Part shown: in pieces, positions 583 through 40,283 of the stretch
Numbering within the stretch: the first letter of the stretch is position 1
Layout: each line of letters starts with the position of its first letter
Virus record (IMG/VR): IMGVR_UViG_2681813145_000006
DNA: 41,316 nucleotides
Source: a virus
Lineage: Duplodnaviria > Heunggongvirae > Uroviricota > Caudoviricetes
Reading direction: 5' to 3' (one strand)
The notes under the pieces: model-generated
Told to the model about the DNA's origin: nothing
Databases searched by the model: none
What the model saw: the letters and a program-made list of their open reading frames with translations, nothing else
Program-made: the position numbers and the translations under genes

Positions 583-3500
583 TATGCGAGCCTCACAATA
601 TAGTTAAATGCGATGTTTTTGACGGTGTTTTCCGCGTTACCAGCAGCGTTAACGGTGATGGTGTGTCCATGTGAGCCAATCGCAACCGAGTGCGTATGCG
701 CACCAATACCTACAGTATGTGCATGTGCGCCAGAACTTGCTGCAGTACCAGACAGCGAGTGGGTATGAGCACCTGCTGACTGTGTCTGAATACGTTGATA
801 ATACGATCTACTGGAAGAAGTCCCCGGGCTTACTTGATACTGTGAATCCTTGACATAAGTGAACCCACCGCCATCATAAAATGCTAACGCAGAACCGCCG
901 CCTCCTGGCCAACGAATACCATTACCATGAGTATGAGCACCGGCAGACCCCGTAGAGCCACTCAGACTGTGCGTATGCGCCCCGGTGTTATTCGTGGATT
1001 TAGTGCCGTAATCAAACGACGATGTGGTTTTCGTCCCCAAATCCGTACTGGATGCGCTGGCGCTGTGGGTGTGCGATTTAATGCCGTCCTGTTCCTGAGA
1101 CAATACGGCACGACCACTGGCAGGTTTGCCCTTAATCGTCCAGCCACGCATATCAGGGATCACGCCTGACGGATAAGCGGCTGCAAGTTTCGGGTAGGCA
1201 GATTTGTCAAAAGTCTGCCCCTGCATCAGGGCATAACCAGACGGAACGGTATCTGATGGCCACGGGATTGGTGCGCCGACTGGGTAGCTTTCTGGTGGAA
1301 GATTTTTCGAGGTATAAACTTCTGCCCAGTCTTCCTCAAAACCATAGCCATCTCTTGAGGAACGGTAGAACAGACCTCCATTTCTGTAATGCGCCTTCAT
1401 CTGCAGGGTCCGGCAACTTCCGACTCCGGTATAGAAGTTAACCAGAATATAGCTGTCGCCAGAGCGGGTGACATTGTAAGCGCCTGATTCGGCATTCCAG
1501 GGAACGCCACCATCCGCATCGGCATATGTATCCGTTGCCCTTCTGGCAAAAGCAGCCACATGCGCGGCGGTTAAAGTAATATCTTTGGAACCATCAAACT
1601 CAACACCAGAAACCAGTCTTGGCGTTTGCAGCTTTGTTGCTGTTAATGCATTACCGTTCAGACTTGCGGACAGTTTGGTTCCAATAATCAGTTCGCCGGT
1701 TGCGTTATCAATAGCAAACGGTCTTAATGTATTCCAGCCACCATAAACATCACCTTGATTGGTAAGCAGCAGGTAAGTTTTAGCGCCATCATTACGCCAT
1801 AATGCACCATACTCCCCACCTATCATTCGAATCTGATTACCACCACGCGCTACAATTTCGTCTGTGGCAAAAAGTTTTTTGCACGACAAGTTATCGTTAA
1901 CGATTAACGAATGAGACTCATAAAAACCACGGCCACTCTTAAAATCAAGGATAACGTCCGCCGCGATACATTCAGTCGCTGGATTTGTTGCCCCAAACTT
2001 ATAGGTCGTATCATTAACAACGAGATCAGCACCAGGTGCGGATATTGACAGGCCATCTTCAATAAACGCAAAAACAGGGAAAGCAGCACCATCAACATAG
2101 AACACAGAGCGCAAATCATCGCCCTTATTACTCATCATTATTGAGTGGATGGCTCGTTCATTGTTTTGATATTGCCAGAACATTCCATAAGCATAACGCC
2201 CCCTGTCAGTCCAGCCACCAGGCATAACAAACCCGTTAAACTCGCAGTTATTCATCGGATCGCCTGCGGTTCGCGTTGCCGTGGTGATAATGACCCTTGA
2301 TGCCAGTTCGCTTACTGAGCCAGCAGAACGCATAACAACAACAGGGTAATATCTTCCAGATATTGCACCTGCAGGAGCGTTAACCCGCACATAACGCATA
2401 CCACGCTTATCAGCAAAGTCTGTTTTACTGACCGCGTTAATGTTGTTCAGGAAGCGTCCCTTATCGGGTATATCAGCGCCGTTCTGGTCTTTCTGCAGAC
2501 GTTTCTCTGCATTGTCATAGGCTGATTTTACTGCCTTTGGCGTTGCCGCCAGCGTTTCAGACGAACTGTTGGTCGCACTGCTGAGCTGTACTATCCCCTT
2601 TTTCGTCGTGCTCGCATCCTCAAGCGCCACGGCGGATGCAATATCCTCTGCCCGTTTTGCCGCTGTCTCAGCGCGCGTTGCTGCGGATTCCGCCGTACTT
2701 TTGCTCTGAGCTGCTGCCGTCGCACTGCCAGCTGCCTCTGTCGCCTTCGTGGATGCCGTCGTGGCGCTGCTCTTCGCTGCTGACGCCTGTCTGGTCGCCT
2801 CATCTTTTGAAGCAGACGCAGATGATGCCGATGACGCTGCCGAACTGGCGGACGATGCGGCTGCCGTTTTTGAGGATTCTGCACGGGTTTCCGACGCTTT
2901 CGCATTCGTTTCGGATGTCTTCGCTGCGGAAGCAGACCTCGCTGCTGCGCTGGCCTGTACAGCGGCTTCGCCAGCCTTCGTTGTGGCTGTTGAAGCGGAC
3001 GATGCAGCACTTTCTGCCGATTTTCCGGCGGCGGTGGCACTGGCTGAGGCCTGCCCGGCACTTGTTGACGCGGCACTGGCAGACGACGCAGCCGCTGTTT
3101 TTGAGCCTGCCGCAGCTGAGGCACTCTGTCCCGCTGCCGTTTCAGAAGCCTTGGCGTTCGTCTCGGACGTTTTTGCCGCCTTCGCAGAATTTGCTGTCGC
3201 CGTTGCCGAGGAAGCTGCGCTGCTGGCGCTCGAGGCTGCGCTCGTTTCTGATGATTTTGCCGCCTCTTTTGAAGCCGACGCATCCCGGGCTGAGGTGGCA
3301 GCTTCTGACGCTTTCGTGGTCGCGGTGGATGCTGAAGTGGCTGCTGATTGTTGTGACGCTGCCGCATTCGTTTCTGACGTTTTTGCCGCAGCGGCACTGG
3401 TGGCCGCCGCGCTTTTTGAGGACTCTGCAGCGGCAGCACTTTTTGATGCTTCAGTGGCCTTTGCTGATGCCGTTCCTGCGCTGGAAGACGCTGACTGAGC

Positions 3501-3995
3501 CGACGAAGCGGCCTGTCCGGCTGACGTGCTGGCTGCGCGTGCTGAGCCTGCAGCATCAGTCGCATGGGTTGCCGCCTCACGGGCAGATGTGCCGGCATCG
3601 CCGGCTGACTTCTTCGCGGCTGCCGTGTTCTGTGCCACTGCGGACGCGTTACGCGCCACCTCTTCCACCATCAGTTCAAAACGGCGCAGTGCCTCTGGCC
3701 GGACATCATCCTCCGTCATTGCACCGAGGAAATCATTCAGTGTGCCCGGCTTTGAGTCCTCATATACGGTGATAATCCCGGCGTGTGACGGCGGGAATCC
3801 CTCCACCAACAGACTGACGCTGTACTGACCATACTCGACGTCCATTGTGTAACGCCCGGCTTCATCCGGGTTTTCTGAGGCCACTGTGTTCACCACCACC
3901 GTGGTGCTGTTGCGCCTGGCCTTTAGCTGAATGGTGCAGTTTTGTATCGGCTTACCTGCGCCATCTTTCAGTACACCTGAAATCCGTACTGCCAT
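582..3995 (-). CDS. stf: Side tail fiber protein (lambda Stf-like), 1137 aa, with a long Ala/Ser/Thr-rich repeat tract
   Basis: ATG at 3993-3995; N-terminus [12 protein letters not shown]...[19 protein letters not shown] and C-terminal His-rich GAHTHSLSG / GIGAHTHSV motifs resemble lambda Stf as recalled. Confidence 0.85.
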
Positions 3996-13775: not shown

Positions 13776-14081
13776 TCACTGAGACACTATTAAAAGCGCG
13801 TTTTCCAGTCCGGCAAATGGATCTGATACGCCTTCTGTCTGCTCCTTCTCCCACTGAAGAAGCGCATCATTCAGTGGCACTTTGACCCCCTGCGCACCGT
13901 AAACAGCTGAAACAATCTGGGCAGCCCGGATATCAGCCCGTTCGTCCCCCAGCGGACTGAACCTGTCAAATTCTGCCCACATCATGATTTCTGATGCTGA
14001 CATTTCCCGGCGTAACTCTGACAATGTGCGCCCCATCCTGAGCGCCAGCATCATCAGAAAACGCATCCCCGGAAGCGCTAC
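13776..14081 (-). CDS. T: T segment of the tail assembly chaperone GT, reached by a -1 frameshift from G
   Basis: ORF in the -1 frame relative to G; stays open from the slippery run at 14081-14089 through 13776; reads ...GEVKKK-VALPGMRFLMM... Confidence 0.6.
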   Translation of the reverse strand, partial: VALPGMRFLMMLALRMGRTLSELRREMSASEIMMWAEFDRFSPLGDERADIRAAQIVSAVYGAQGVKVPLNDALLQWEKEQTEGVSDPFAGLENALLIVSQ

Positions 14082-14464
14082 TTTTTTTTAACCTCGCCGG
14101 CATCACTGATCAGTTCCAGAGACTGCCGAAGAAGCCGCGCATGCACCGGACCATACACGGCAATCACCTGTTCACGATCATCCTCTGAAAATACAGGTTG
14201 CAGTCCGGTATCACACAGAACATCAATGAACAGTTCAACATCTGCCTCCAGATTTCGGCGGGCGCGCTCCGCAACGGATAACGGTGTCTCATCATCTTTT
14301 GCTTTAACGATCTCCTGCCAGCGCAACCAGGCTTCTGCAGAAGGTTCCCGTAATACAACCGTTGCTCCCTCCCATTCAGGCACATCAACAGTTTTATGGC
14401 GAAACCCCGACATCGTTGCCAGTGCCAGATTGCGGATATTTTTAGTCATCACATCTATCCTCAT
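14078..14464 (-). CDS. G: Tail assembly chaperone G, 128 aa
   Basis: ATG at 14462-14464 overlaps the V stop (TAATG); ends GEVKKK* on an A AAA AAG slippery heptamer. Confidence 0.7.
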   Translation of the reverse strand: MRIDVMTKNIRNLALATMSGFRHKTVDVPEWEGATVVLREPSAEAWLRWQEIVKAKDDETPLSVAERARRNLEADVELFIDVLCDTGLQPVFSEDDREQVIAVYGPVHARLLRQSLELISDAGEVKKK

Positions 14465-15227: not shown

Positions 15228-15572
15228 TCAGGCTATTACCTGAAATTCAAGCGTGGCTCTGCTCAGACGGGAATCAGGATCATAACCCTGAGTTTTAGAA
15301 ATAACGGAGGGTGCAAGTTGCCTTACCGCATCAAGCGCCTGCTCACGGATATCATCTGCGTCATCAGGTACTGTTGCCCAGACATCGATCTGCACGGTAA
15401 TTCTGGATTCAGCCTGACCATCAAGCACATCAGACGCAGTGTCAGACACCACAGAAAATACCAGCCATGGCGGAGATACCGCAGGCTTTCCCTCCGTCAG
15501 CGGGACCACATAAGGATAAACCTGTCCTCCGGCCAGTTGAGACAGCAGGGAATACAGTGTGGTCTCTCTCAT
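15228..15572 (-). CDS. Tail terminator protein (gpU-position), 114 aa
   Basis: ATG at 15570-15572 overlaps the upstream stop (ATGA); call is by position between tail completion and major tail genes. Confidence 0.6.
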   Translation of the reverse strand: MRETTLYSLLSQLAGGQVYPYVVPLTEGKPAVSPPWLVFSVVSDTASDVLDGQAESRITVQIDVWATVPDDADDIREQALDAVRQLAPSVISKTQGYDPDSRLSRATLEFQVIA

Positions 15573-25331: not shown

Positions 25332-25841
25332 TTATTTGCGTTTATTGACAGGTAATATAGAATTAGCAGCATCTTTCTCTCTCTCTTGGAACGAGTTATG
25401 TCTTTTAACCATATCAGGACCAATGAGACTATAAATTACTGTCAACAGTTGCCATAAAGTTAAAAAAACCAAAATGGCATATGACGCGCCCCTAAAAATG
25501 TCCTTGTGATCTATAAAAAACGGTATCTGTTTTACTAATGGCGCAACAACGCCAATAATTAAAACTGATGCTAAAATAGCAGTAGAATGTACAATTGGTG
25601 TAAATAACCTTGTAATCCCACTGCCATTAGATTCACTCGCTGAACTGCCACCTCTAAATGATTTTTTTAATCGTTCAGGATAGATTATCGCAAACCAAGC
25701 TCCCACAACTGCAAAGATAATGGATGCTGTAGTTCGCAGGGCCTCATAAAGAGGCCACTGGGATGAGAAGGGAACATTCTTCCCAAAATAGGCAGAAAAA
25801 ATCAGAACGACCATAAGAAAAATTCCACCTAAGATTTTCAT
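25332..25841 (-). CDS. Four-helix integral membrane protein, 169 aa, second gene of the AT-rich cargo cassette
   Basis: ATG at 25839-25841 directly after the upstream stop (TAGATG) with GGGA SD; four hydrophobic segments; family not recognised. Confidence 0.65.
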   Translation of the reverse strand: MKILGGIFLMVVLIFSAYFGKNVPFSSQWPLYEALRTTASIIFAVVGAWFAIIYPERLKKSFRGGSSASESNGSGITRLFTPIVHSTAILASVLIIGVVAPLVKQIPFFIDHKDIFRGASYAILVFLTLWQLLTVIYSLIGPDMVKRHNSFQEREKDAANSILPVNKRK

Positions 25842-26694
25842 CTACATTCCCGCCTCGCGTAATATGAGCTCCCTTTTGCCTACAAGTTCAGAAAGAAGAG
25901 ATTCCGAGGACACAAACTCGGCGTCCTGTCGCTCCAAATTCAAGTGGAATTTGGTTCGTGCTAATGAACGACTGAGCCAATATGTCGTTGGATCTCCTTT
26001 AAATACAAAACCATAATCACAAGAGTTTGTATCGCTATGTTTATTCCAATCATCAATCATCCCCTCGATGTCATCAATATCAACATTCGGAGAAAGTTCA
26101 TATTTAATTTTTGTTGAGGTATTTGCAGTTTGTGGATGGCTAATATTCATATTAATCAATAGTTTTTGCCACAGGCTAAACTCGTCAGGTTTTGACACAT
26201 CAAGTTCAACAACCTTTTCAATTTTAGAAACAATATTAGCATTCTGCCTAATAACTTCATGTTTACCAGGATTTCTTACTAAACCAGCTACGAACTGTGG
26301 ATAGTGTTTTTTCTTTGGCAGCACATCATCTGTTGGGTTAATTTTATAGCCCTTGATAACCACCTCATGCGTGCCATCTTCCTTCTCCACACTTTCCGCC
26401 ACAACGTGGCTTGATGACTGTTTTAAAAAATGATAGAGATAGCATTGCATCGCCTTCTGTCCCGTCAAAGCATGGTTAAACTTGATGCTAGCCACTAAAT
26501 CCATGGATGGAATAAACCAAAAGTAAGTAGCAAAACCAGGAATACTTCCCTTCTGGATTGAATTAAGTATTACTGTTGGGTCCGTACCAAATTCTGTATC
26601 TTCCTGAACCGATGGAACACTTTGATCTGTAGAAGGAACCTCATTCCAGAGCAACAAAACCACATTGTCACCAGCACGTTTCATATCCAGAAGA
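25842..26694 (-). pseudogene. C-terminal part (about 284 codons) of an unrecognised cargo gene split by IS1
   Basis: Frame is open from the IS1 boundary to the stop at 25842-25844; the listed ORF start at 26706-26708 is a TTG inside the IS1 end; first native ATG is 26682-26684 (MKRAGD...). Confidence 0.7.
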
Positions 26695-26709
26695 GGTAAT
26701 GACTCCAAC

Positions 26710-27213
26710 TTATTGATAGTGTTTTATGTTCAGATAATGCCCGATGACTTTGTCATGCAGCTCCACCGATTTTGAGAACGACAGCGACTTCCGTCCCAGC
26801 CGTGCCAGGTGCTGCCTCAGATTCAGGTTATGCCGCTCAATTCGCTGCGTATATCGCTTGCTGATTACGTGCAGCTTTCCCTTCAGGCGGGATTCATACA
26901 GCGGCCAGCCATCCGTCATCCATATCACCACGTCAAAGGGTGACAGCAGGCTCATAAGACGCCCCAGCGTCGCCATAGTGCGCTCACCGAATACGTGCGC
27001 AACAACCGTCTTCCGGAGACTGTCATACGCGTAAAACAGCCAGCGCTGGCGCGATTTAGCCCCGACATAGCCCCACTGTTCGTCCATTTCCGCGCAGACG
27101 ATGACGTCACTGCCCGGCTGTATGCGCGAGGTTACCGACTGCGGCCTGAGTTTTTTAAGTGACGTAAAATCGTGTTGAGGCCAACGCCCATAATGCGGGC
27201 AGTTGCCCGGCAT
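26710..27213 (-). CDS. insB: IS1 transposase InsB frame (expressed as the InsAB' frameshift fusion)
   Basis: 167-aa ORF inside IS1; the A6C slippery run lies at 27150-27156 on the plus strand. Confidence 0.85.
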
Positions 27214-27407
27214 CCAACGCCATTCATGGCCATATCAATGATTTTCTGGTGCGTACCGGGTTGAGAAGCGGTGTAAGTGAACTGCAGTTGCCATGTTTTA
27301 CGGCAGTGAGAGCAGAGATAGCGCTGATGTCCGGCGGTGCTTTTGCCGTTACGCACCACCCCGTCAGTAGCTGAACAGGAGGGACAGCTGATAGAAACAG
27401 AAGCCAC
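27132..27407 (-). CDS. insA: IS1 protein InsA, 91 aa
   Basis: ORF inside IS1 with GTG start at 27405-27407; Cys-rich N-terminus [10 protein letters not shown]. Confidence 0.85.
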
Positions 27408-27462
27408 TGGAGCACCTCAAAAACACCATCATACACTAAATCAGTAAGTTGGCAGCATCACC

Positions 27463-30195: not shown

Positions 30196-30468
30196 TTACC
30201 TCCAGATCCGTTGCTGGTATGTGCGGGATGGGCGCGGTGGGCGTTCGGAATAAGGGAGCCTGACATAGATTATCCAGTGACGATAATCGAGGCTGAGGGC
30301 TTTCTTAATCTCGTATCCGCGTCTGCTGTAGTTATGAATTAGCCATTCGGCCTGTTCTTCAGTACATGGTGGGTGTTGGTACCAGTCGGTTTTAAATGCG
30401 TGTGAACGCCGCTCATGCCGGATGGCAAGGTCGGTATCAGAATTGTGAAATTTGGTTTTGTGCGCCAT
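30196..30468 (-). CDS. Hypothetical protein, 90 aa
   Basis: ATG at 30466-30468; lies between the Hok gene and the DUF968 gene. Confidence 0.45.
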   Translation of the reverse strand: MAHKTKFHNSDTDLAIRHERRSHAFKTDWYQHPPCTEEQAEWLIHNYSRRGYEIKKALSLDYRHWIIYVRLPYSERPPRPSRTYQQRIWR

Positions 30469-30540
30469 CTGTTTTCTCTGCTGGCGCAGCAGGTGTCAGG
30501 TGTTCAGGCTGACGTGCGAATTGTAAACCAGAATGCCAGG

Positions 30541-30567
30541 AAAAAACAAAACCCGCCGAAGCGGGTT
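30541..30567 (-). terminator. Rho-independent terminator 3' of the Hok locus
   Basis: Stem ACCCGC/GCGGGT (30551-30556 / 30561-30566), loop CGAA, A-run 30541-30550 gives a U-tract on the minus transcript. Confidence 0.6.
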
Positions 30568-30635
30568 AAGTGCGGGTGCGTTGAGGATGCCTGACTCATC
30601 AGAGGTGGCGAGGGATTTCTCCCTCGCCAGGTCTC

Positions 30636-30791
30636 TTACTCCTCAGGTTCGTAAGCTGTGAAGACAGCGACCTCCGTCTGGCCGGTTCGGATTCGTACCT
30701 CGCAGAGGTCTTTCCTCGTTACCAGTGCCGTCACAATGACGGTTAAACAGATGACGATCAGGGCGATTAACATCGCCTTTTGCTGCTTCAT
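30636..30791 (-). CDS. hokD: Hok/Gef family membrane toxin, 51 aa (HokD/RelF-like)
   Basis: ATG at 30789-30791 preceded by AAGGAGAA; MKQQKAMLIALIVICLTVIVTALVTRKDLCEVRIRTGQTEVAVFTAYEPEE has the Hok pattern; the listed ORF carries a 19-codon in-frame upstream extension. Confidence 0.75.
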   Translation of the reverse strand: MKQQKAMLIALIVICLTVIVTALVTRKDLCEVRIRTGQTEVAVFTAYEPEE

Positions 30792-31028
30792 AGCCTGCTT
30801 CTCCTTGCCTTTCGGCACGTAAGAGGCTAACCTAGATTTGCCGTTCATAGATTGAGCCTCAGATTAATGTTAAGCGTCTTGCCGGACGCGTAATGTTAAC
30901 TGGGGCTTTTCTCTATCTGCCTTTCAGTGTTCATGCCTGAGACAGATAGCCTCAAGCACCCGCAGCCATTCTACTTAACTCACGTCACCTCGCCAATATG
31001 AAATCAATCAGAAAGGTGATCCATAAAA

Positions 31029-31715
31029 TCACTCCTTCTCTTCTTTTCCGTAGTGGAGTTGGCCAATTTTGATAAGAGGGCGTCCCTGAGATTTGCGGTG
31101 TAGATTGGTATCGCGCAGAGAATACACACAGCCACAATATTCCTGCTGATAGAATTTTTCGCGCTTGCTGATTTCAATCATACGGGACGAGCCGCCCTGC
31201 TTGCGCCAGTTATAATCCCAGTACACCATACCCGGATAATGCGCAACAGCTCGCCGCCCACACTCGTTAACCTGCTGCATATTTTTCCAGCGTGAAATGC
31301 CCAGTGAACTGCTGATCACACTGAAACCATTTTCAGCAGCGTACAACGCTGTCCGCTCAAAACGCATGTCAAAACACATGGTACAACGGATCCCCCTCTC
31401 AGGCTCCCATTCCATTCCTTTGGCACGTTCAAACCAGTTGTCGGTGTCGTAATCAGCATCGATAAACGGCACGCCGTGTTGTTCAGCAAAGCGAATATTT
31501 TCATCCTTACGAATTAAATACTCTTTCTGAGGATGAATGTTCGGGTTGTAGAAAAAGATGGTGTAGTCGATTCCCGAGGCCTGAAGCGCCTCCATCACTT
31601 CACCGGAACATGGAGCACAGCAAGAGTGCAGTAGTAGTTTGTTTGCCCCGTTTGGGAGCTCCAATTTAGGCCGTTTGAAATCAGCAATAGTCATAAATAT
31701 TTTTATTGGGGTCAT
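31029..31715 (-). CDS. queH: Epoxyqueuosine reductase QueH-like protein (DUF208), 228 aa
   Basis: Motif [11 protein letters not shown] near the N-terminus and several further conserved Cys; an alternative ATG lies at 31692-31694. Confidence 0.65.
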
Positions 31716-31868
31716 GAAAATAGCACAGAGTGTAGCATCAGAGCAGGGCTATCGGGAATATATGTCTAAATCTGGTAATATCTGGTTTTGACGCAAAGCG
31801 GACAACCACGCTGGCTCTACCCTGCGCCATGAAAATGTCAATTCACATCTGAACTAATGCTCTTTAAT

Positions 31869-32294
31869 CTAGTAACGTCTAAAATACCTAACATTTCCTT
31901 GATAAAATGCCAGTACACGCTGCATAGCTTCGCTCTTCCGGCACTCGCGACAGATTATATTCAGGCGCCTGTCGTAGCGGCGTATTTCGCCGTCTGGTAA
32001 CGACCAGATAAGGTCCGGATCAACCACTGCAGGTTTCTTCACCTTTGCCCTTGAGAGTTTTTTGCGGGCATTTTGCCAGTCCTTACGCGCCTGTTCAGAC
32101 GGGAATAACCCGTAGCCAGAATTGTATACATCGCCACTGGCAACCAGCTCTCTGGCGAGAACACTCATCAGATATCTTGTCGCACCTGTTTTCGCTTCCA
32201 GTTGTCGTAACGTCTCGCGCCCGCTCAGGCGCACGAGTTCAACAACCTGCCTCTTAATTTTTTCCCGCTCTTCTTGTGTAAATACTTTTGCCAC
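31869..32294 (-). CDS. Hypothetical basic protein, 141 aa
   Basis: GTG start at 32292-32294 preceded by AGGAGGG; lies downstream of the replication gene. Confidence 0.45.
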   Translation of the reverse strand: MAKVFTQEEREKIKRQVVELVRLSGRETLRQLEAKTGATRYLMSVLARELVASGDVYNSGYGLFPSEQARKDWQNARKKLSRAKVKKPAVVDPDLIWSLPDGEIRRYDRRLNIICRECRKSEAMQRVLAFYQGNVRYFRRY

Positions 32295-32334
32295 AAGCCC
32301 TCCTGAAAATTACCTCATGACCAGAAATTAACAC

Positions 32335-33405
32335 TTACCCCCTGAAGCCCGGCGGAATTTCGTTATCCGGTTCAGAAATATGATTCACACAACGCTGGTT
32401 GTTCGTGCCGCTTACCGGGAGCAACCAGGGGTTCTCAAAATTCCGGTCCGGTCCAAAAAACGTCGTCGCTCGCTGAACAAATTCCGTTCCCGTTTTCCCG
32501 GTAGCCGCCAGGTATCTTGCGTAACGCCTCACACCATCCAGCATGGCCTCTGGTGGCACCCCCTCGCGTAATCTGGCCTTCCAGGCACTGAAAGCGGATT
32601 TCTTCGGGTTTGCCCCAGCACGCAACGGGTATTCCCGCCAGACCTGTTCGAACACATCCGGATAATCTACTCGTCCCACAGGCTGCCCGGTGTTTTCCGG
32701 GACTACCCGATCGGCTTCCCGCTGAATGGCGGAATCGGCTTCAGGCTGCTGCAGTTGGTGTGATTGCTCCGGCCTTGCGGTCATCACCTGCTGCACAGCG
32801 CCCGAATCGGCTTTCAGCGCATACGCTGAATCGGCTTCCGGTGTCGTGCCTGCTGGCTGACCAGGATTGACGGTCTGAACATCCCCTGCCTGGTTCGTGG
32901 CGTTTTTTACGCCATGGACCATAGTGTTTTGATCTTCTTGATCTGTATCTTTATCTGTATCTTTATCTGTCGTGACTCGTCGTGACATGTGCGTGACATT
33001 TCGTGACGCGCCGTGACAATCGCCATTTTGTTCCTGCTTTCTTTCCCTCTCTCGCTGCGCCCTCTTGCGCTCTGCAGGAGATTTTGCGGTTTGCGAAATA
33101 TTGCCGTTGTCCTCTTTAAGCACCTGGCGTTTTTCCCATCCAGTGATTAAATCACCATCAAGTACCCGCCCCTGCATCGTCTGCAAAATTGAATCAATTA
33201 CCTCTTCTGTCACGTCGAGCGCACTTGCCAAATCTTCTGTCGTGACATCAATGTGACCTCGCGTGACATTTCGTGACGCGCTCACCAGGAGGTGGATATA
33301 CACTGCCATCACTGTTGCAATTGGCTGCCCTGACACCCTGGCAATTGTTCGCCACTTAGGGTCATTTGGCATGTCATGCCATAATCTGAGCCAGGCGTTA
33401 GCCAT
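32335..33405 (-). CDS. Putative replication initiation protein, 356 aa, with iterons inside its coding sequence
   Basis: ATG at 33403-33405 preceded by GAGGTG; two CGTGAC repeat clusters lie within the gene. Confidence 0.5.
   Translation of the reverse strand: MANAWLRLWHDMPNDPKWRTIARVSGQPIATVMAVYIHLLVSASRNVTRGHIDVTTEDLASALDVTEEVIDSILQTMQGRVLDGDLITGWEKRQVLKEDNGNISQTAKSPAERKRAQRERERKQEQNGDCHGASRNVTHMSRRVTTDKDTDKDTDQEDQNTMVHGVKNATNQAGDVQTVNPGQPAGTTPEADSAYALKADSGAVQQVMTARPEQSHQLQQPEADSAIQREADRVVPENTGQPVGRVDYPDVFEQVWREYPLRAGANPKKSAFSAWKARLREGVPPEAMLDGVRRYARYLAATGKTGTEFVQRATTFFGPDRNFENPWLLPVSGTNNQRCVNHISEPDNEIPPGFRG
32941..33017. repeat. Iteron cluster 1: two 12-bp tandem repeats ATCTGTATCTTT followed by five CGTGAC motifs at about 10-bp spacing
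   Basis: CGTGAC at 32971, 32981, 32992, 33002 and 33012. Confidence 0.7.
33241..33281. repeat. Iteron cluster 2: four (C/T)GTGAC motifs at about 10-bp spacing, including a 21-bp exact copy of cluster 1
   Basis: Motifs at 33241, 33252, 33262 and 33272; GCGTGACATTTCGTGACGCGC occurs at 32991-33011 and 33261-33281. Confidence 0.7.
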
Positions 33406-33476
33406 ACTCACCTCTTCTGATACCGAATCTTTTTACTCACGAGTTGCCGGAAGCGATTCGATATGGCTATTGTCAG

Positions 33477-33905: not shown

Positions 33906-34166
33906 TCAACTCCTAGAAAGTGGTTGTGTTAACATTTTGGTATCTTCCAGCTCGGGCCAAATATTCATCCAATCAAAAGGCCTTAGTTGCTGACGTGTAA
34001 CTTCACCATTACTGCCTCGCTCAATAAGGACACATAACGATGCCCCTAACACTTGACCTTTACTCAATGCCTTTCTTAGATAACCGATGCTGGTACCACA
34101 CTCGCATGCAAACATACGCTGTTCATCTGACGAAAGAGAATTGAGAAATATTCTTAATTCTTCCAT
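33906..34166 (-). CDS. Cro/DicC-like HTH regulator, 86 aa
   Basis: ATG at 34164-34166 preceded by AAGGAG; divergent from the repressor gene. Confidence 0.55.
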   Translation of the reverse strand: MEELRIFLNSLSSDEQRMFACECGTSIGYLRKALSKGQVLGASLCVLIERGSNGEVTRQQLRPFDWMNIWPELEDTKMLTQPLSRS

Positions 34167-34176
34167 AGCTACTCCT

Positions 34177-34268
34177 TAGTAAACACAGCAAAGAATACCC
34201 ATAGGTAAACAAAAGTCAATACCCACAGGTTGTTTACCTTGCAGTAATCGCATCTATTATTTACCTAT
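34177..34268. promoter_or_regulatory. Immunity-region operators and divergent promoters
   Basis: Repeated half-sites TAGTAAACA (34177), TAGGTAAACA (34202), inverted TGTTTACCT (34231) and TTTACCTAT (34260) in the 100-bp gap between divergent regulator genes. Confidence 0.5.
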
Positions 34269-34686
34269 GGACAAATATGAATTTAGACGACAGCAACTCA
34301 TCAAAATTCGTGATGAGAAATGCGATGGTAAAGCGGTTAACGTGGCCAGAAAGATCGGGCGCGAGCCTTCTTATGTATCAAGAATGTTGTACCCAGAGGG
34401 GAAAAAGGGAAAAAAACGGATCGCTGATGATATGGTGGAGATTATCGAAGAGTCCTTTGGGTTACCCCGGGGATGGATGGATGGTATCGTTTCATCATCA
34501 ACGAACACAGCCTCCAGTTATGAAACAAGGGTTCTAACGCCACGACAACGTATTTTTTTAGATCTCTTAGACGAGCTCCCTGACAGTGAAGCGGATAACT
34601 TATTAAAAACTCTTGAAGAGAAAAAACAGAAGTACAATGCAATTTACGAAGAGTTAGCACGAAAGAAAAAACAAAAAGCCTCTTAA
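34267..34686 (+). CDS. DicA/CI-like repressor (HTH, XRE family), 139 aa
   Basis: ATG at 34267; HTH around AVNVARKIGREPSYVSRML; C-terminal helical tail resembling DicA as recalled. Confidence 0.6.
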   Translation: MDKYEFRRQQLIKIRDEKCDGKAVNVARKIGREPSYVSRMLYPEGKKGKKRIADDMVEIIEESFGLPRGWMDGIVSSSTNTASSYETRVLTPRQRIFLDLLDELPDSEADNLLKTLEEKKQKYNAIYEELARKKKQKAS

Positions 34687-36554: not shown

Positions 36555-38996
36555 ATGAGCACTGATAAAGAAGAATTTGCACTATATTGCGAAGCAAAAA
36601 ATGACAAAGTAAGAAAACGCCTAGGAATTAAAGGTGGTTTTTACTGGACTACAGCAAAAAAATTATCTGTTGCAATCTCCCGCTGCATTACCGCAATGGA
36701 TGACAACGATTATGATGAAGACGACTTTAAAAAACCCGTCCGCGTCAATTTGCCCGTTGTTGACGACCTTCCGCCAGAAGGCGTGTTTGATACTGAATTC
36801 TGCAACCGCTATGAAAAAGGCGGGAAAGATGGCATCACAATGACATTTATCGGCCCTTCCCCCTCTGTTCAGGACAAACCAGCCAGCACTGACAATACCA
36901 ACATCAACGGCGAAGACATGGCTGAGATTGAGGAGAGCATGCTTCTGCCTGTCTCCGGTCAGGAACTGCCCATTCGTTGGCTTGCTCAACACGGCAGCGA
37001 AAAACCAGTAACGCACGTTTCACGCGACGAACTCCAGGCATTACACATTGCACGGGCTGAAGAACTACCGGCTGTTACTGCCCTGGCTATTTCGCATAAA
37101 ACCAGTCTGCTCGACTCGCTGGAGATTCGCGACCTCCACAAACTGGTTCGTGACACTGACAAAGTTTTCCCTAATCCTGGTAATTCAGACCTGGGACTAA
37201 TAACTGCTTTTTTCGAAGCATACCTGGACGCTGACTACACTGATCGGGGTCTGCTGACAAAAGAGTGGATGAAAGGAAATCGTGTTTCACGCATCACCCG
37301 CACGGCTTCCGGTGCTAATGCTGGCGGTGGGAACAAAACCGATCGCAATCCGAATTTAGTACACACCCTCGACACACTGGATGTGGAGATTGCAGCAGCC
37401 ACACTTCCGATGGATTTTAATATTTATGAAATTCCGGGCAGCGTTTATCGTCGCGCAAAAGAAGTAGTCCTGAACAAAGAAAGTCCGTTCAAAGAATGGT
37501 CCGCAGCACTTCGTGCAACCCCGGGTATTCTGGACTATTCCCGCGCCGCTATTTTTGCACTTATCCGAAGCGCACACCCTGAATTTTATCACTACCCGGG
37601 ACGCCTTCAGGGGTATATCAACGCCTATTTGACGGAAACTGATCACGAGAACCCCAGCAAGGAAACTCTCACAGCTGCCCGGCATACGCCGGAAAAAGAT
37701 ATCCTGGAAGAAATTAACCGCGAGGTGGTTACTGAGCGTGAAACAGAAGAAGAAAAACCACAACCATCTGACGCAATGGCAGGTGAACAGGCAACAACTG
37801 AAACAATGGAACCGGATACAACTGAACATGGCCAAAACGCGCAGTCGCTGGATGCTCAGTCGCAGGTGAGTTCCGCTAACCAAGTAAAAGTCACCGCTGA
37901 CGAAGTAAACAAAATTATGCAGGCAGCCAATATCAGCCAGCCTGACGCCGATAAGTTACTTGCTGTATCGCGTGGTGAATTTGTTGAGGGGATTAGCGAC
38001 CCTAATGATCCGAAATGGGTCAAGGGGATCCAGACTCGCGATTCTGTGAACCAGAACCAGCATGAATCGGAACGGAACGACCAAAAAGCGGAACAAAATA
38101 GCCCAAATGCGTTACAAAACGAGCCAGAAACGAAACAATCCGAACCAGTAGCGCAACAGGAACCGGAAAAAGTCTGCACCGCCTGCGGTCAGAGCGGTGG
38201 CGGCAACTGCCCTGATTGTGGCGCGGTGATGGGCGACGCAACATACCAGGAAACATTCGATGAAGAGAATCAGGTTGAAGTTCAGGAAAATGATCCGGAG
38301 GAAATGGAAGGCGCTGAACATCCACACAAGGAGAACCCTGGCGGCAATCAGCATCACGCCAGCGATAATAAAACTGGCGAGACGGCAGATCACTCAATTA
38401 AGGTGACCGGTCATCACGAAATCACATCCACCAGCAGGACGTGTGACCATCTAATGATCGACCTTGAAACCATGGGAAAAAATCCTGATGCCCCGATCAT
38501 CTCAATAGGTGCAATATTTTTCGATCCGCAAACCGGAGATATGGGACCGGAATTTAGTAAGACTATCGATCTGGAAACTGCTGGCGGAGTCATTGATCGG
38601 GACACCATTAAATGGTGGCTTAAGCAATCACGCGAAGCGCAATCTGCCATTATGACCGATGAAATCCCGTTAGATGATGCACTGTTACAATTGCGGGAAT
38701 TTATCGACGAAAACTCCGGTGAATTTTTTGTTCAGGTCTGGGGAAATGGAGCCAACTTCGACAACACGATTTTGCGCCGTTCATACGAACGGCAGGGGAT
38801 CCCCTGCCCGTGGCGTTACTACAACGATCGCGATGTACGCACAATCGTTGAGCTGGGGAAAGCCATAGACTTCGATGCCAGAACGGCTATTCCATTCGAA
38901 GGTGAGCGCCATAATGCACTTGATGACGCTCGTTACCAGGCAAAATACGTTTCAGCTATCTGGCAAAAACTGATCCCGAGTCAGGCTGATTTTTAA
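36555..38996 (+). CDS. Large RecE-like prophage protein with C-terminal DEDDh (DnaQ-like) 3'-5' exonuclease domain, 813 aa
   Basis: ATG at 36555; long N-terminal and central region that I recall as shared with RecE; C-terminal motifs [20 protein letters not shown] and HNALDDARY. Confidence 0.7.
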
Positions 38997-39054: not shown

Positions 39055-39258
39055 ATGAGCAGCTTATTTTTAACCGAAGATGAATTGCTAATATTAACGG
39101 GCTGCAAATATGCAAGCCACCAGCGAAAATGGTTAATGGAAAACGGGCTTCCGTTCTATACCAATCGTAGTGGCAAACCGATTGTCAGCCGGGATCTATT
39201 TACCTGCAATAAAACTTTACCACCACGCGAGGTAGAGCCGAATTTTGGTGCGATCTGA
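39055..39258 (+). CDS. xis: Excisionase-like small protein, 67 aa
   Basis: ATG at 39055; stop overlaps the int start (ATGA); position immediately 5' of the integrase gene. Confidence 0.5.
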   Translation: MSSLFLTEDELLILTGCKYASHQRKWLMENGLPFYTNRSGKPIVSRDLFTCNKTLPPREVEPNFGAI

Positions 39259-40283
39259 TGGGAAGACGAAGGAAAAATCCTGAACACGAAAAATTACCTC
39301 CAAATGTATACCCAAATAAATATAGTTATGTATGGAAACCAACATCCAGAGAATCTGTCACACTAACCGCCATCAAGGATGGTTTAGCTGCTTTATGGAA
39401 AAAGTATGAGGAAACTGTAAATAATCGCGATCGTGCAATGACATTCGGTCGCTTGTGGGAAAAATTCCTCGCCAGCGCCTATTACAGTGACCTTAGTCCA
39501 AGAACACAAAAAGATTATCTGCAACATCAAAAAAAGTTGCTTGCCGTATTCGGTAAGGTACCAGCGGATTCCATAAAACCAGAACACATCCGTCGATACA
39601 TGGACAAAAGAGGGGAGCAGAGTAAAACGCAAGCCAACCATGAAAAAAGCAGTATGTCCCGTGTTTACAGTTGGGGGTATGAGCGAGGGTACGTGAAGGC
39701 TAACCCATGTGCAGGTGTAAGTAAATTCAAGGCCAAAAACCGCGAACGATATGTAACCGACAAAGAATACCAGGCAGTATTAAGCGTTGCACCTCTTCCT
39801 GTTTTTATCGCAATGGAAATTGCCTATCTGTGTGCAGCGAGGGTTTCCGATGTGTTATCGCTGAAATGGGAACAGATTGGAAACGACGGGATATTCATCC
39901 AGCAAGGGAAAACCGGAAAAAAACAGATAAAAGCATGGAGTCCACGATTACAGGCAGCGATCGAAAAAGCAAAACAGTTACCAAAATCTGCCTATGTGAT
40001 CAGCAATCAATACGGCAACCGATATATGTACAAAGGCTTTAACGAAATGTGGGTAGATGCAAGAAATCGTGCTGGAAAAATTTCAGGTATTTTAACCGAC
40101 TTCACCTTTCATGATCTGAAGGCGAAAGGAATTTCAGACTATGAAGGAAGCAGCCGGGATAAGCAACTTTTCTCTGGTCACAAAACCGAAGGGCAAGTGC
40201 TAATCTATGACAGGAAGGTTAAAGTTTCACCAACACTTGATGTCCCGTTACCTGAAAATATTCCAAGAAAATATTCCAAGTAA
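39258..40283 (+). CDS. int: Tyrosine-type phage integrase, 341 aa
   Basis: ATG at 39258; C-terminal catalytic region FHDLKAKG...SGHKTEGQVLIYDR; adjacent to a tRNA gene. Confidence 0.85.
   Translation: MGRRRKNPEHEKLPPNVYPNKYSYVWKPTSRESVTLTAIKDGLAALWKKYEETVNNRDRAMTFGRLWEKFLASAYYSDLSPRTQKDYLQHQKKLLAVFGKVPADSIKPEHIRRYMDKRGEQSKTQANHEKSSMSRVYSWGYERGYVKANPCAGVSKFKAKNRERYVTDKEYQAVLSVAPLPVFIAMEIAYLCAARVSDVLSLKWEQIGNDGIFIQQGKTGKKQIKAWSPRLQAAIEKAKQLPKSAYVISNQYGNRYMYKGFNEMWVDARNRAGKISGILTDFTFHDLKAKGISDYEGSSRDKQLFSGHKTEGQVLIYDRKVKVSPTLDVPLPENIPRKYSK

What the first reader, a model, noticed from the sequence alone, without database searches (positions are those of the whole stretch)
31029..31868. Prophage-encoded QueH-like epoxyqueuosine reductase
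The 228-aa protein has the DUF208 signature [11 protein letters not shown] and further conserved Cys. The QueH family catalyses the last step of queuosine tRNA modification, a job normally done by QueG in this host. It lies as cargo between the replication genes and Hok, with a possible extended -10 element upstream. It could change tRNA modification in the lysogen or relate to 7-deazaguanine chemistry.
Basis: partly seen in the sequence, partly recalled or inferred. Interest (0 to 1): 0.55.

Follow-up and report, generated by a model that had tools for sequence, protein, structure and literature searches.

The report
Prophage-carried QueH tRNA-queuosine reductase gene
A lambda-like prophage of E. 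coli carries an intact, selectively maintained copy of queH, the vitamin-B12-independent enzyme for the last step of queuosine tRNA modification; databases already name the gene, but no paper I could search discusses its presence on a phage.

Summary
A minus-strand ORF at 31029..31715 matches Pfam QueH/DUF208 over the full profile (E 1e-65). It keeps every family-invariant residue, including the seven Cys. Its predicted fold matches T. maritima QueH (TM 0.85). The true start is probably the ATG at 31694 (221 aa, not 228).

The gene is a ~0.8 kb cassette in a variable cargo slot between the DUF977 gene and hok/sok. The host element is a lambdoid prophage integrated at tRNA-Ser next to mtfA. Its nearest non-phage relatives (88-92% identity) are chromosomal queH genes of Scandinavium, Kluyvera and Enterobacter.

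The cassette also kept the native upstream TGCTACACT motif (extended -10-like), which is conserved before chromosomal queH across Enterobacterales. Prophage alleles show dN/dS of 0.05-0.09.

queH occurs in 995 of 5426 complete E. coli genomes, and all 5426 have the B12-dependent queG. No 7-deazaguanine DNA-modification genes are present in the prophage.

Most likely it is a working, cobalamin-independent epoxyqueuosine reductase acting on host tRNA, redundant with QueG.

RefSeq already names it QueH, so the identity is not new. The phage carriage seems unstudied, which makes it modestly interesting.

The parts
31029..31694 (-). queH coding sequence, 221 aa from the conserved ATG. The longer 228-aa reading starts at 31715.
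   Evidence: PF02677 E 1.1e-65, full length. PDB 7lc5 QueH E 8e-22. Fold TM 0.85. All invariant family columns kept. Start-codon argument. PGAP annotates the 221-aa form.
31729..31737 (-). Putative native promoter: extended -10-like TGC-TACACT, 34 nt before the ATG at 31694.
   Evidence: Identical or nearly identical in all five prophage alleles compared, including ST70, whose homology to the other alleles starts only ~52 nt before the ATG. TACA(C/A)T, often preceded by TGC, sits 31-37 nt before the ATG of chromosomal queH in Erwinia, Scandinavium, Kluyvera, Enterobacter and Symbiopectobacterium; Providencia and Photorhabdus have TATACT/TATAAT at the same distance. Not called by the consensus scan. 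No transcript data.
31695..31728 (-). Short A/U-rich leader without a Shine-Dalgarno motif.
   Evidence: Read directly from the sequence. Scandinavium and Kluyvera chromosomal queH also lack an SD.
30982..31777 (.). Approximate queH cassette: the DNA absent from related lambdoid phages that have DUF977/LygF and hok but no queH.
   Evidence: Phages without queH match the window only from about 31777-31887 upward and from 30981 downward. The minimal unit shared by all alleles runs from ~52 nt upstream of the ATG to just past the stop codon.
31869..32294 (-). DUF977 (LygF/Ren-like) gene, the conserved upstream flank.
   Evidence: PF06163 E 4e-28; annotations.
32335..33411 (-). O-like replication initiator / replisome organiser.
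   Evidence: Annotated as 'phage replisome organizer' and 'replication initiation O-like protein' in near-identical records. No Pfam hit.
30636..30961 (-). mok/hok toxin gene with its sok-overlapping leader, the downstream flank.
   Evidence: Rfam RF01794 sok, 111.9 bits, at 30786..30961. hokD annotated. A promoter-like site at 30996..30968 lies just after the queH stop.

Best explanation
The gene encodes a functional QueH, the cobalamin-independent iron-sulfur epoxyqueuosine reductase. It converts epoxyqueuosine (oQ34) to queuosine (Q34) on the host's tRNA-Asp, -Asn, -His and -Tyr.

A lambdoid phage captured it from a chromosomal queH of an Enterobacteriaceae relative (Scandinavium, Kluyvera or Enterobacter-like). 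It came as a compact ~0.8 kb cassette that kept its own -10 promoter element and leader. It sits in a variable cargo slot of the early-right region.

It can therefore be transcribed in two ways: from its own promoter in the lysogen, and by read-through from the phage early operon after induction.

Every E. coli already has QueG, which needs vitamin B12, and E. coli must import B12. So the prophage gene makes the last step of Q synthesis independent of B12 supply.

Shown here: family membership, intact ligands, fold, purifying selection, origin, cassette structure and co-occurrence with queG. Inferred: enzymatic activity in E. coli, promoter activity, and the B12-independence benefit.
For: Membership:
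- PF02677 over the full profile.
- 31% identity and E 8e-22 to the crystallised T. maritima QueH.
- AlphaFold model (pLDDT 79.8, pTM 0.80) superposes on 7lc5/7lc7 with target-normalised TM 0.84-0.85 and rmsd 2.5 A.
- All 18 columns invariant across 32 diverse QueH sequences are kept. These include C25, C26, C29, C104, C107, C187 and C189 in 221-aa numbering.
- CCAPC is the family norm (70 of 75 representatives). The Asp13 of T. maritima is the outlier.

Orthology with housekeeping genes:
- 88-92% identity to queH of Scandinavium, Kluyvera and Enterobacter, with no phage neighbours detected.
- 80-86% identity to Erwinia (purL-queH-glrK), Providencia and Photorhabdus chromosomal queH.

Selection: dN/dS is 0.046-0.094 between prophage alleles, with dS up to 0.45.

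Prevalence: queH is present in 995 of 5426 complete E. coli genomes, 985 of them near full length. The exact protein is on at least 1000 contigs. It is also in the isolated phage HannyBb.

Cassette and promoter.

Redundancy: queG is in 5426 of 5426 genomes. QueG is cobalamin-dependent in E. coli (PMC4646009; PMC11841063).

Precedent: S. aureus has both QueG and QueH, with differing expression (PMC13443448). From my own knowledge of Zallot et al. 2017 (paper not held), Acinetobacter baylyi needs both genes deleted to lose Q.
Against: - No biochemical or transcript evidence was available here.
- The generic sigma-70 scan did not call a promoter upstream of queH, and no terminator follows it.
- NCBIfam gave no hit, so the RefSeq name does not rest on a curated NCBIfam equivalog model.
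- The NAU/NAC codon usage of the prophage (0.58 NAU) is unremarkable as far as I recall E. coli usage, so no codon signal supports a translational benefit for the phage.
- Whether oQ and Q differ functionally in decoding is not established, so the fitness benefit is uncertain.
Confidence: 0.8

Rival explanations
1. The gene is a lytic-cycle auxiliary gene. It matters mainly after induction, when it is transcribed with the early-right operon. It would then raise Q (and lower oQ) in host tRNA to favour translation of phage late proteins, with little or no role in the lysogen.
For: It has the same orientation as, and sits inside, the cro-O-DUF977...Q early-right operon, with no terminator on either side. 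In Shewanella glacialimarina, phage infection raises Q and lowers oQ through queG induction (bioRxiv 10.64898/2026.03.05.709803; review PMC13191261). Some tail genes are strongly NAU-biased, for example 14078..14464 with 16 NAU and 0 NAC.
Against: Retention of the native -10 element, even in the allele that shares only 52 nt upstream, suggests phage-independent transcription. Overall prophage NAU usage is ordinary and head genes are NAC-balanced. tRNA turnover and modification within one lytic cycle may be too slow to matter (inference). This reading is compatible with the main explanation rather than exclusive of it.
Confidence: 0.25
2. The protein takes part in 7-deazaguanine modification of phage DNA, or otherwise acts on a deazaguanine substrate other than tRNA oQ, as an anti-restriction measure.
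For: Phages are known to use preQ0-derived bases in DNA (PMC6884629). The gene sits in a slot that elsewhere holds defence or cargo genes, such as Kiwa directly downstream in strain 7/2.
Against: No DpdA/TGT-like transglycosylase and no FolE, QueD, QueE or QueC is annotated anywhere in the prophage. No PADLOC match. The protein is 88-92% identical to chromosomal queH genes and keeps all invariant residues under strong purifying selection. No epoxide-bearing deazaguanine is known in DNA (own knowledge).
Confidence: 0.03
3. The gene is a selectively neutral hitch-hiker. It was captured by illegitimate recombination, is redundant with QueG, and contributes nothing to phage or host.
For: queG is universal in E. 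coli, so the function is formally redundant. The slot is a recombination hot spot with interchangeable content. This prophage shows decay elsewhere, namely an IS1 insertion, and the integrase is annotated as frameshifted in the near-identical KKo009 copy.
Against: dN/dS is 0.05-0.09 over dS up to 0.45 among alleles sitting on different phage backbones. The 40 E. coli copies sampled across the ranking are all annotated as QueH, with none listed as a pseudogene. The gene persists in about 18% of complete genomes and in a viable phage.
Confidence: 0.1

Closest known systems
QueH (DUF208, PF02677, COG1636): cobalamin-independent epoxyqueuosine reductase; crystal structures of Thermotoga maritima QueH (7LC5, 7LC7, 9DEU)
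   Same: Full-length profile match, same predicted fold, and the same Cys pattern (CC..C / RCxxC / CGC) and other invariant residues.
   Different: Only 31% identical to the crystallised enzyme. It has Cys where T. maritima has Asp13, but Cys is the family norm. It has N- and C-terminal extensions shared with proteobacterial QueH. It is encoded on a prophage rather than in a chromosomal housekeeping context.
Chromosomal queH of Enterobacterales (Scandinavium, Kluyvera, Enterobacter, Erwinia, Providencia, Photorhabdus)
   Same: 80-92% protein identity, same length, same N-terminus ([13 protein letters not shown]...), and the same upstream TACA(C/A)T -10-like element at the same distance.
   Different: Those copies lie among ordinary chromosomal genes (for example purL-queH-glrK in Erwinia, tmcA-DUF441-queH in Providencia). 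The window copy is flanked by phage replication genes and hok/sok.
QueG (YjeS), the cobalamin- and Fe-S-dependent epoxyqueuosine reductase of E. coli
   Same: Same reaction (oQ34 to Q34), and co-resident in every queH-positive E. coli.
   Different: Not homologous, and it needs vitamin B12 (PMC4646009). It is a core gene in 5426 of 5426 genomes, against accessory queH in 995 of 5426.
Phage 'morons' / lysogenic-conversion cargo genes of lambdoid phages
   Same: A discrete insertion between conserved phage genes, absent from close relatives, with a candidate promoter of its own, in a slot holding alternative cargo.
   Different: No terminator of its own was detected. GC content (47.5%) is close to that of the prophage (50.9%). 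Promoter activity is untested.

Membership tests
QueH / DUF208 (PF02677) | Full-length match to the family profile above the curated threshold | tested here: met
   E 1.1e-65, 221.5 bits against a 23.5 cut-off, profile 1-174/175.
QueH / DUF208 (PF02677) | Conserved cysteines that bind the metal centres (CC(A)P(C/D), RCxxC, CGC) | tested here: met
   C25, C26, C29, C104, C107, C187 and C189 (221-aa numbering) are invariant across 32 diverse members and present here. Column counts over 85 representatives plus T. maritima are. PDB holds C9S and D13N mutants at the first motif.
QueH / DUF208 (PF02677) | Fold of T. maritima QueH (adenine-nucleotide alpha-hydrolase-like core) | tested here: met
   The top five Foldseek PDB hits are all QueH entries, with TM (target) 0.82-0.85 and rmsd 2.5-4.1 A. 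The next hits are TtuA/LarE-type AANH proteins at TM below 0.4. The model is predicted, with pLDDT 79.8.
QueH / DUF208 (PF02677) | Reduces epoxyqueuosine to queuosine in tRNA without cobalamin | not testable with these tools
   Needs complementation of a queG mutant with LC-MS, or an enzyme assay.
QueH / DUF208 (PF02677) | Host genome supplies the substrate pathway (tgt, queA and preQ1 synthesis) | not tested
   Established knowledge for E. coli (for example PMC9508795). Only queG was counted here (5426 of 5426).
Phage moron (autonomously expressed cargo gene) | Insertion between conserved genes, absent from closely related phages | tested here: met
   Related phages carry DUF977/LygF and hok without queH, or with another gene in the slot. 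Downstream neighbours vary.
Phage moron (autonomously expressed cargo gene) | Own promoter | tested here: inconclusive
   A conserved TGCTACACT is shared with chromosomal queH genes, but the consensus scan does not call it and there are no transcript data.
Phage moron (autonomously expressed cargo gene) | Own terminator | tested here: not met
   No terminator-like site lies between the queH stop and the hok promoter. The only one found is after hok, at 30567..30550.
Phage 7-deazaguanine DNA modification systems (DpdA-type) | DpdA/TGT-like DNA transglycosylase in the same genome | tested here: not met
   None among the annotated genes of the whole prophage, none among the ORFs scanned against Pfam, and no PADLOC hit for queH.
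Phage 7-deazaguanine DNA modification systems (DpdA-type) | preQ0 synthesis genes (folE, queD, queE, queC) | tested here: not met
   None annotated in the prophage.

The most novel reading that the evidence does not exclude
The prophage queH is a true lysogenic-conversion gene. It would uncouple maturation of queuosine-tRNA from vitamin B12 supply. E. coli lysogens would then keep fully modified Q-tRNA where B12 is scarce (the competitive gut) or where the BtuB receptor has been lost under phage or colicin pressure. That would change translation and fitness. If so, it would be the first tRNA-queuosine-specific enzyme shown to be supplied by a phage; an earlier survey found none in viruses (PMC6884629).
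Probability: 0.4. Interest if true: 0.55.

Novelty: already known. Interest (0 to 1): 0.3.

Why it matters
About one in five complete E. coli genomes carries this phage-borne second epoxyqueuosine reductase. Carriers include O157:H7 (strain Z1767), a strain named ST-131 and APEC O18.

If it is active, Q versus oQ status in these strains no longer reports B12 availability. That matters for work on queuosine-dependent translation, biofilm and virulence phenotypes, and queuine supply to the animal host.

It would also add tRNA wobble-base maturation to the functions that temperate phages bring to their hosts.

The identity of the gene is not new. What is open is whether the gene is expressed, and what it does for the host and the phage.

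Tried and rejected
1. Is CCAPC (Cys where T. maritima has Asp13, a residue mutated in PDB 9dco) a deviation that might signal a changed function? Rejected. Cys is the family norm, in 70 of 75 representatives.

2. Is there a preQ1 riboswitch or other known RNA element upstream of queH? The Rfam e-value scan of 30300..32400 found only sok and sub-threshold noise.

3. Is QueH a known defence-system component? No PADLOC hit.

4. Is there NAU/NAC codon bias in prophage genes that would show a Q-dependent translation signal? The overall NAU fraction is 0.58, which is unremarkable as far as I recall E. coli usage.

5. Does queH replace a decayed queG? Rejected. queG is at 80% coverage or more in all 5426 genomes. 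Point mutations were not screened.

6. Is QueH widespread in isolated phages? Only HannyBb is convincing. Other hits in the phage collection are short gut-virome contigs, or records that look like bacterial chromosome. The 80 IMG/VR loci returned are all the identical E. coli prophage allele.

7. The key papers (Zallot 2017; Li 2021; Frey 1988) are not held. Statements about them rest on citing papers or on my own knowledge.

8. Literature searches for prophage or phage QueH found no study of it.

Full report
**Observation.** The window contains a minus-strand ORF at 31029..31715 (228 aa from the first ATG) with the sequence [11 protein letters not shown]. The protein matches Pfam PF02677 (QueH, formerly DUF208) with E 1.1e-65 and 221.5 bits, against a gathering threshold of 23.5. 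The match covers profile positions 1-174 of 175. It also matches PHROG 3217, which is labelled 'unknown function', at E 1.9e-138. Its only significant relatives in the PDB are the Thermotoga maritima QueH entries 7lc5, 7lc7, 9deu, 9dco and 9d86, at E about 1e-21. NCBIfam returned nothing.

**Family features.** I aligned the protein with 85 representatives of 50%-identity clusters, found by an exhaustive HMMER search (4774 hits at E<=1e-3), plus the T. maritima sequence.
- The cysteines of the three motifs (CCAPC, RCxxC, CGC) are the consensus residues in their columns, and the window protein has all of them.
- The Cys that follows CCAP replaces Asp13 of T. maritima, a residue that depositors mutated in 9dco. 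This Cys is the family norm (70 of 75 non-gap sequences), so it is not a deviation.
- In a cleaner alignment of 32 diverse full-length members, 18 columns are invariant: C25, C26, C29, N52, E58, Y59, R62, E99, R103, C104, C107, R111, K137, Q184, C187, G188, C189 and S192 (221-aa numbering). The window protein carries every one.
- An AlphaFold2 model (pLDDT 79.8, pTM 0.80) has the QueH crystal structures as its five best PDB matches, with target-normalised TM 0.82-0.85 and rmsd 2.5 A for 7lc5. The next hits are generic AANH-fold enzymes at much lower TM.

Membership in the QueH family is therefore met on every feature that sequence tools can test. Catalysis itself cannot be tested here.

**Start codon.** The first ATG (31715) is not conserved. 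The divergent allele in strain ST70 has ATT there. Chromosomal homologues (Erwinia, Scandinavium and others) start with [13 protein letters not shown], which aligns to the second ATG at 31694. PGAP also uses that start (221 aa, WP_000150294.1). The protein is thus most likely 221 aa.

**Context.** The window is almost entirely a lambdoid prophage.
- It has lambda-like tail genes and HK97-type head genes, then a lysis cassette, Q antiterminator, RusA, DUF968, hok/sok, queH, DUF977, an O-like replication gene, YdaT, a cro/cI-type immunity region, dicB, an exonuclease and an integrase.
- It ends at tRNA-Ser(CGA) next to mtfA.
- queH lies in the early-right transcription unit, in the same orientation as its neighbours, between the DUF977 gene (31869..32294) and mok/hok (30636..30848). 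Rfam finds sok at 30786..30961.
- No gene for 7-deazaguanine DNA modification (DpdA/TGT-like, FolE, QueC, QueD, QueE) is annotated anywhere in the prophage. QueH matches no PADLOC defence model.

**A cassette in a variable slot.** Related lambdoid phages that lack queH match the window only from about 31777-31887 upward (the DUF977/LygF side) and from 30981 downward (the hok side). In phage mEp460_ev081 the same slot holds an oppositely oriented 449-aa ORF.

Among queH-bearing prophages the neighbours change:
- a Kiwa KwaB-like defence gene, preceded by a hypothetical gene, follows queH in strain 7/2;
- a DUF1971 gene follows it in ST70;
- a truncated methyltransferase precedes it in NCTC10537 and in phage HannyBb.

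Among 61 IMG/VR loci carrying the identical allele, the downstream homology ends at several different points. The unit common to all alleles runs from about 52 nt upstream of the ATG to just past the stop codon.

**Origin.** The nearest relatives outside E. coli-type prophages are queH genes of Scandinavium (92%), Kluyvera (91%), Enterobacter (88-90%) and Symbiopectobacterium (87%). In the loci tested (Scandinavium, Kluyvera, Enterobacter, Symbiopectobacterium), none of the window's phage proteins has a neighbour match. Erwinia, Providencia and Photorhabdus copies (80-86%) lie among ordinary chromosomal genes, for example purL-queH-glrK and tmcA-DUF441-queH. This QueH subfamily is unusually conserved overall, at 75-80% identity even in Sphingomonas and Stenotrophomonas. 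That argues for a strongly constrained, conserved function.

**Promoter.** Upstream of the ATG, all prophage alleles share CTCTGATGCTACACT. TG is at 31737-31736 and TACACT at 31734..31729, 34 nt before the ATG.
- Scandinavium has almost the same string (GCTCTGATGCTACAAT).
- TGCTACA(C/A)T or TACACT recurs 31-37 nt before the start codon of chromosomal queH in Kluyvera, Enterobacter, Symbiopectobacterium and four Erwinia.
- Providencia and Photorhabdus have TATACT and TATAAT at the same distance.

This looks like the native extended -10 promoter of queH, carried over with the gene. It is comparative evidence only. The generic consensus scan did not call it, and no terminator follows the gene. 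The other TG-n-TATTTT next to the first ATG is not conserved.

**Selection and prevalence.** Pairwise dN/dS between five prophage alleles on different backbones is 0.046-0.094, with dS up to 0.45. The gene has therefore been kept functional while phage-borne.
- queH is found in 995 of 5426 complete E. coli genomes, 985 at near full length and nearly all chromosomal. The 40 hits sampled across the ranking are all annotated QueH.
- The exact protein occurs on at least 1000 contigs, and its 90% cluster has 2308 members, including Shigella, Klebsiella and Enterobacter.
- It is present in E. albertii in the same phage context.
- It is present in the isolated phage HannyBb, where it is annotated 'hypothetical protein'.
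- queG, the cobalamin-dependent enzyme for the same step, is in all 5426 genomes. Every queH-positive strain therefore has both.

**Mechanism.** The best-supported reading is that the prophage supplies a working, cobalamin-independent epoxyqueuosine reductase. It would act on host tRNA with GUN anticodons, redundantly with QueG.
- QueG requires cobalamin (PMC4646009; PMC11841063).
- Frey et al. 1988, cited, described the cobamide dependence of this step in E. coli and Salmonella. That paper is not held.
- That E. coli cannot make B12 de novo is my own knowledge.

The obvious consequence is that Q maturation becomes independent of B12. Organisms with both enzymes are known: S. aureus (PMC13443448) and, from my recollection of Zallot et al. 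2017, Acinetobacter baylyi.

Expression is expected from the gene's own promoter in the lysogen and by read-through from the early operon after induction. The second route fits the reports that Q rises and oQ falls during phage infection of Shewanella. I found no codon-usage signal in the prophage that would point to a phage-side translational benefit (NAU fraction 0.58).

**Rivals.**
- A purely lytic auxiliary role is compatible with the main reading, but it does not explain the retained native promoter.
- A role in DNA deazaguanine chemistry lacks every partner gene.
- Neutral hitch-hiking is contradicted by the strong purifying selection.

**Novelty.** RefSeq/PGAP and UniRef already name this exact protein QueH, so the identification is already known. 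What appears unaddressed is the phage carriage. Six full-text searches found no paper on prophage or phage QueH. The 2019 survey of deazaguanine genes in viruses stated that no QueA, QueG or QueH homologues were found (PMC6884629). PHROGs lists the family as of unknown function. This makes the finding a sound, ordinary annotation with a modestly interesting and easily testable biological question attached.

Noticed in passing
window 25332..27462: Two low-GC genes (37-40% GC) between the Q antiterminator and the lysis genes match the PADLOC candidate defence system PDC-M18 (B: 25332..25841, E 3e-75; A: 25842..26708, E 9e-197). In this window an IS1 (26695..27462, 768 bp) is inserted into the 5' part of the A gene. 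The A gene is intact (346 aa) in the otherwise near-identical prophage of strain KKo009.
   Followed up: partly
window 33914..34569: The cro/repressor immunity segment is the only stretch, apart from the IS1, that does not match the otherwise 99.9-100% identical prophage of strain KKo009. This suggests an immunity-region swap between near-identical prophages.
   Followed up: no
L015 (E. coli 7/2) 1653..3292; L013 (ST70) 2537..2875; L012 (mEp460_ev081) 2324..3673: The slot just downstream of DUF977/queH holds different cargo in different prophages: a Kiwa KwaB-like gene preceded by a hypothetical gene, a DUF1971 protein, or an opposite-strand 449-aa ORF. It behaves like a cargo/defence hot spot of lambdoid early-right regions.
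   Followed up: partly
window 14078..14464 and 15228..15572: Two small tail-region genes use almost only U-ending His/Asn/Asp/Tyr codons (16 NAU and 0 NAC; 13 and 2), while head genes are balanced. This was not tested statistically, and its relevance to Q-dependent decoding is unknown.
   Followed up: no
window 36555..38996: An 813-aa early-left protein combines an exodeoxyribonuclease VIII (RecE-like) domain with a C-terminal Rv2179c-like 3'-5' exoribonuclease domain.
   Followed up: no
L011 (CAKLQH020000001.1, 'Acinetobacter phage MD-2021a', 328 kb): This record in the phage collection carries queH among soxR, tadA, cynX and similar genes. It looks like bacterial chromosome, not phage. Several other 'phage' records with QueH hits (Staphylococcus and Listeria 'Kay' records, short gut-virome contigs) may likewise be bacterial DNA, so phage-borne QueH outside enterobacterial lambdoids is unproven.
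   Followed up: partly
window 30546..30627: A weak, sub-threshold Rfam hit to isrK (27.8 bits against a gathering score of 50) overlaps the terminator hairpin after hok (30567..30550). It is probably just the hok mRNA 3' end.
   Followed up: no
window 39258..40283; L002 17948..18998: The integrase next to tRNA-Ser is annotated as frameshifted in the near-identical KKo009 prophage. Together with the IS1, this suggests the prophage may be partly defective. The frameshift was not verified in the window itself.
   Followed up: no
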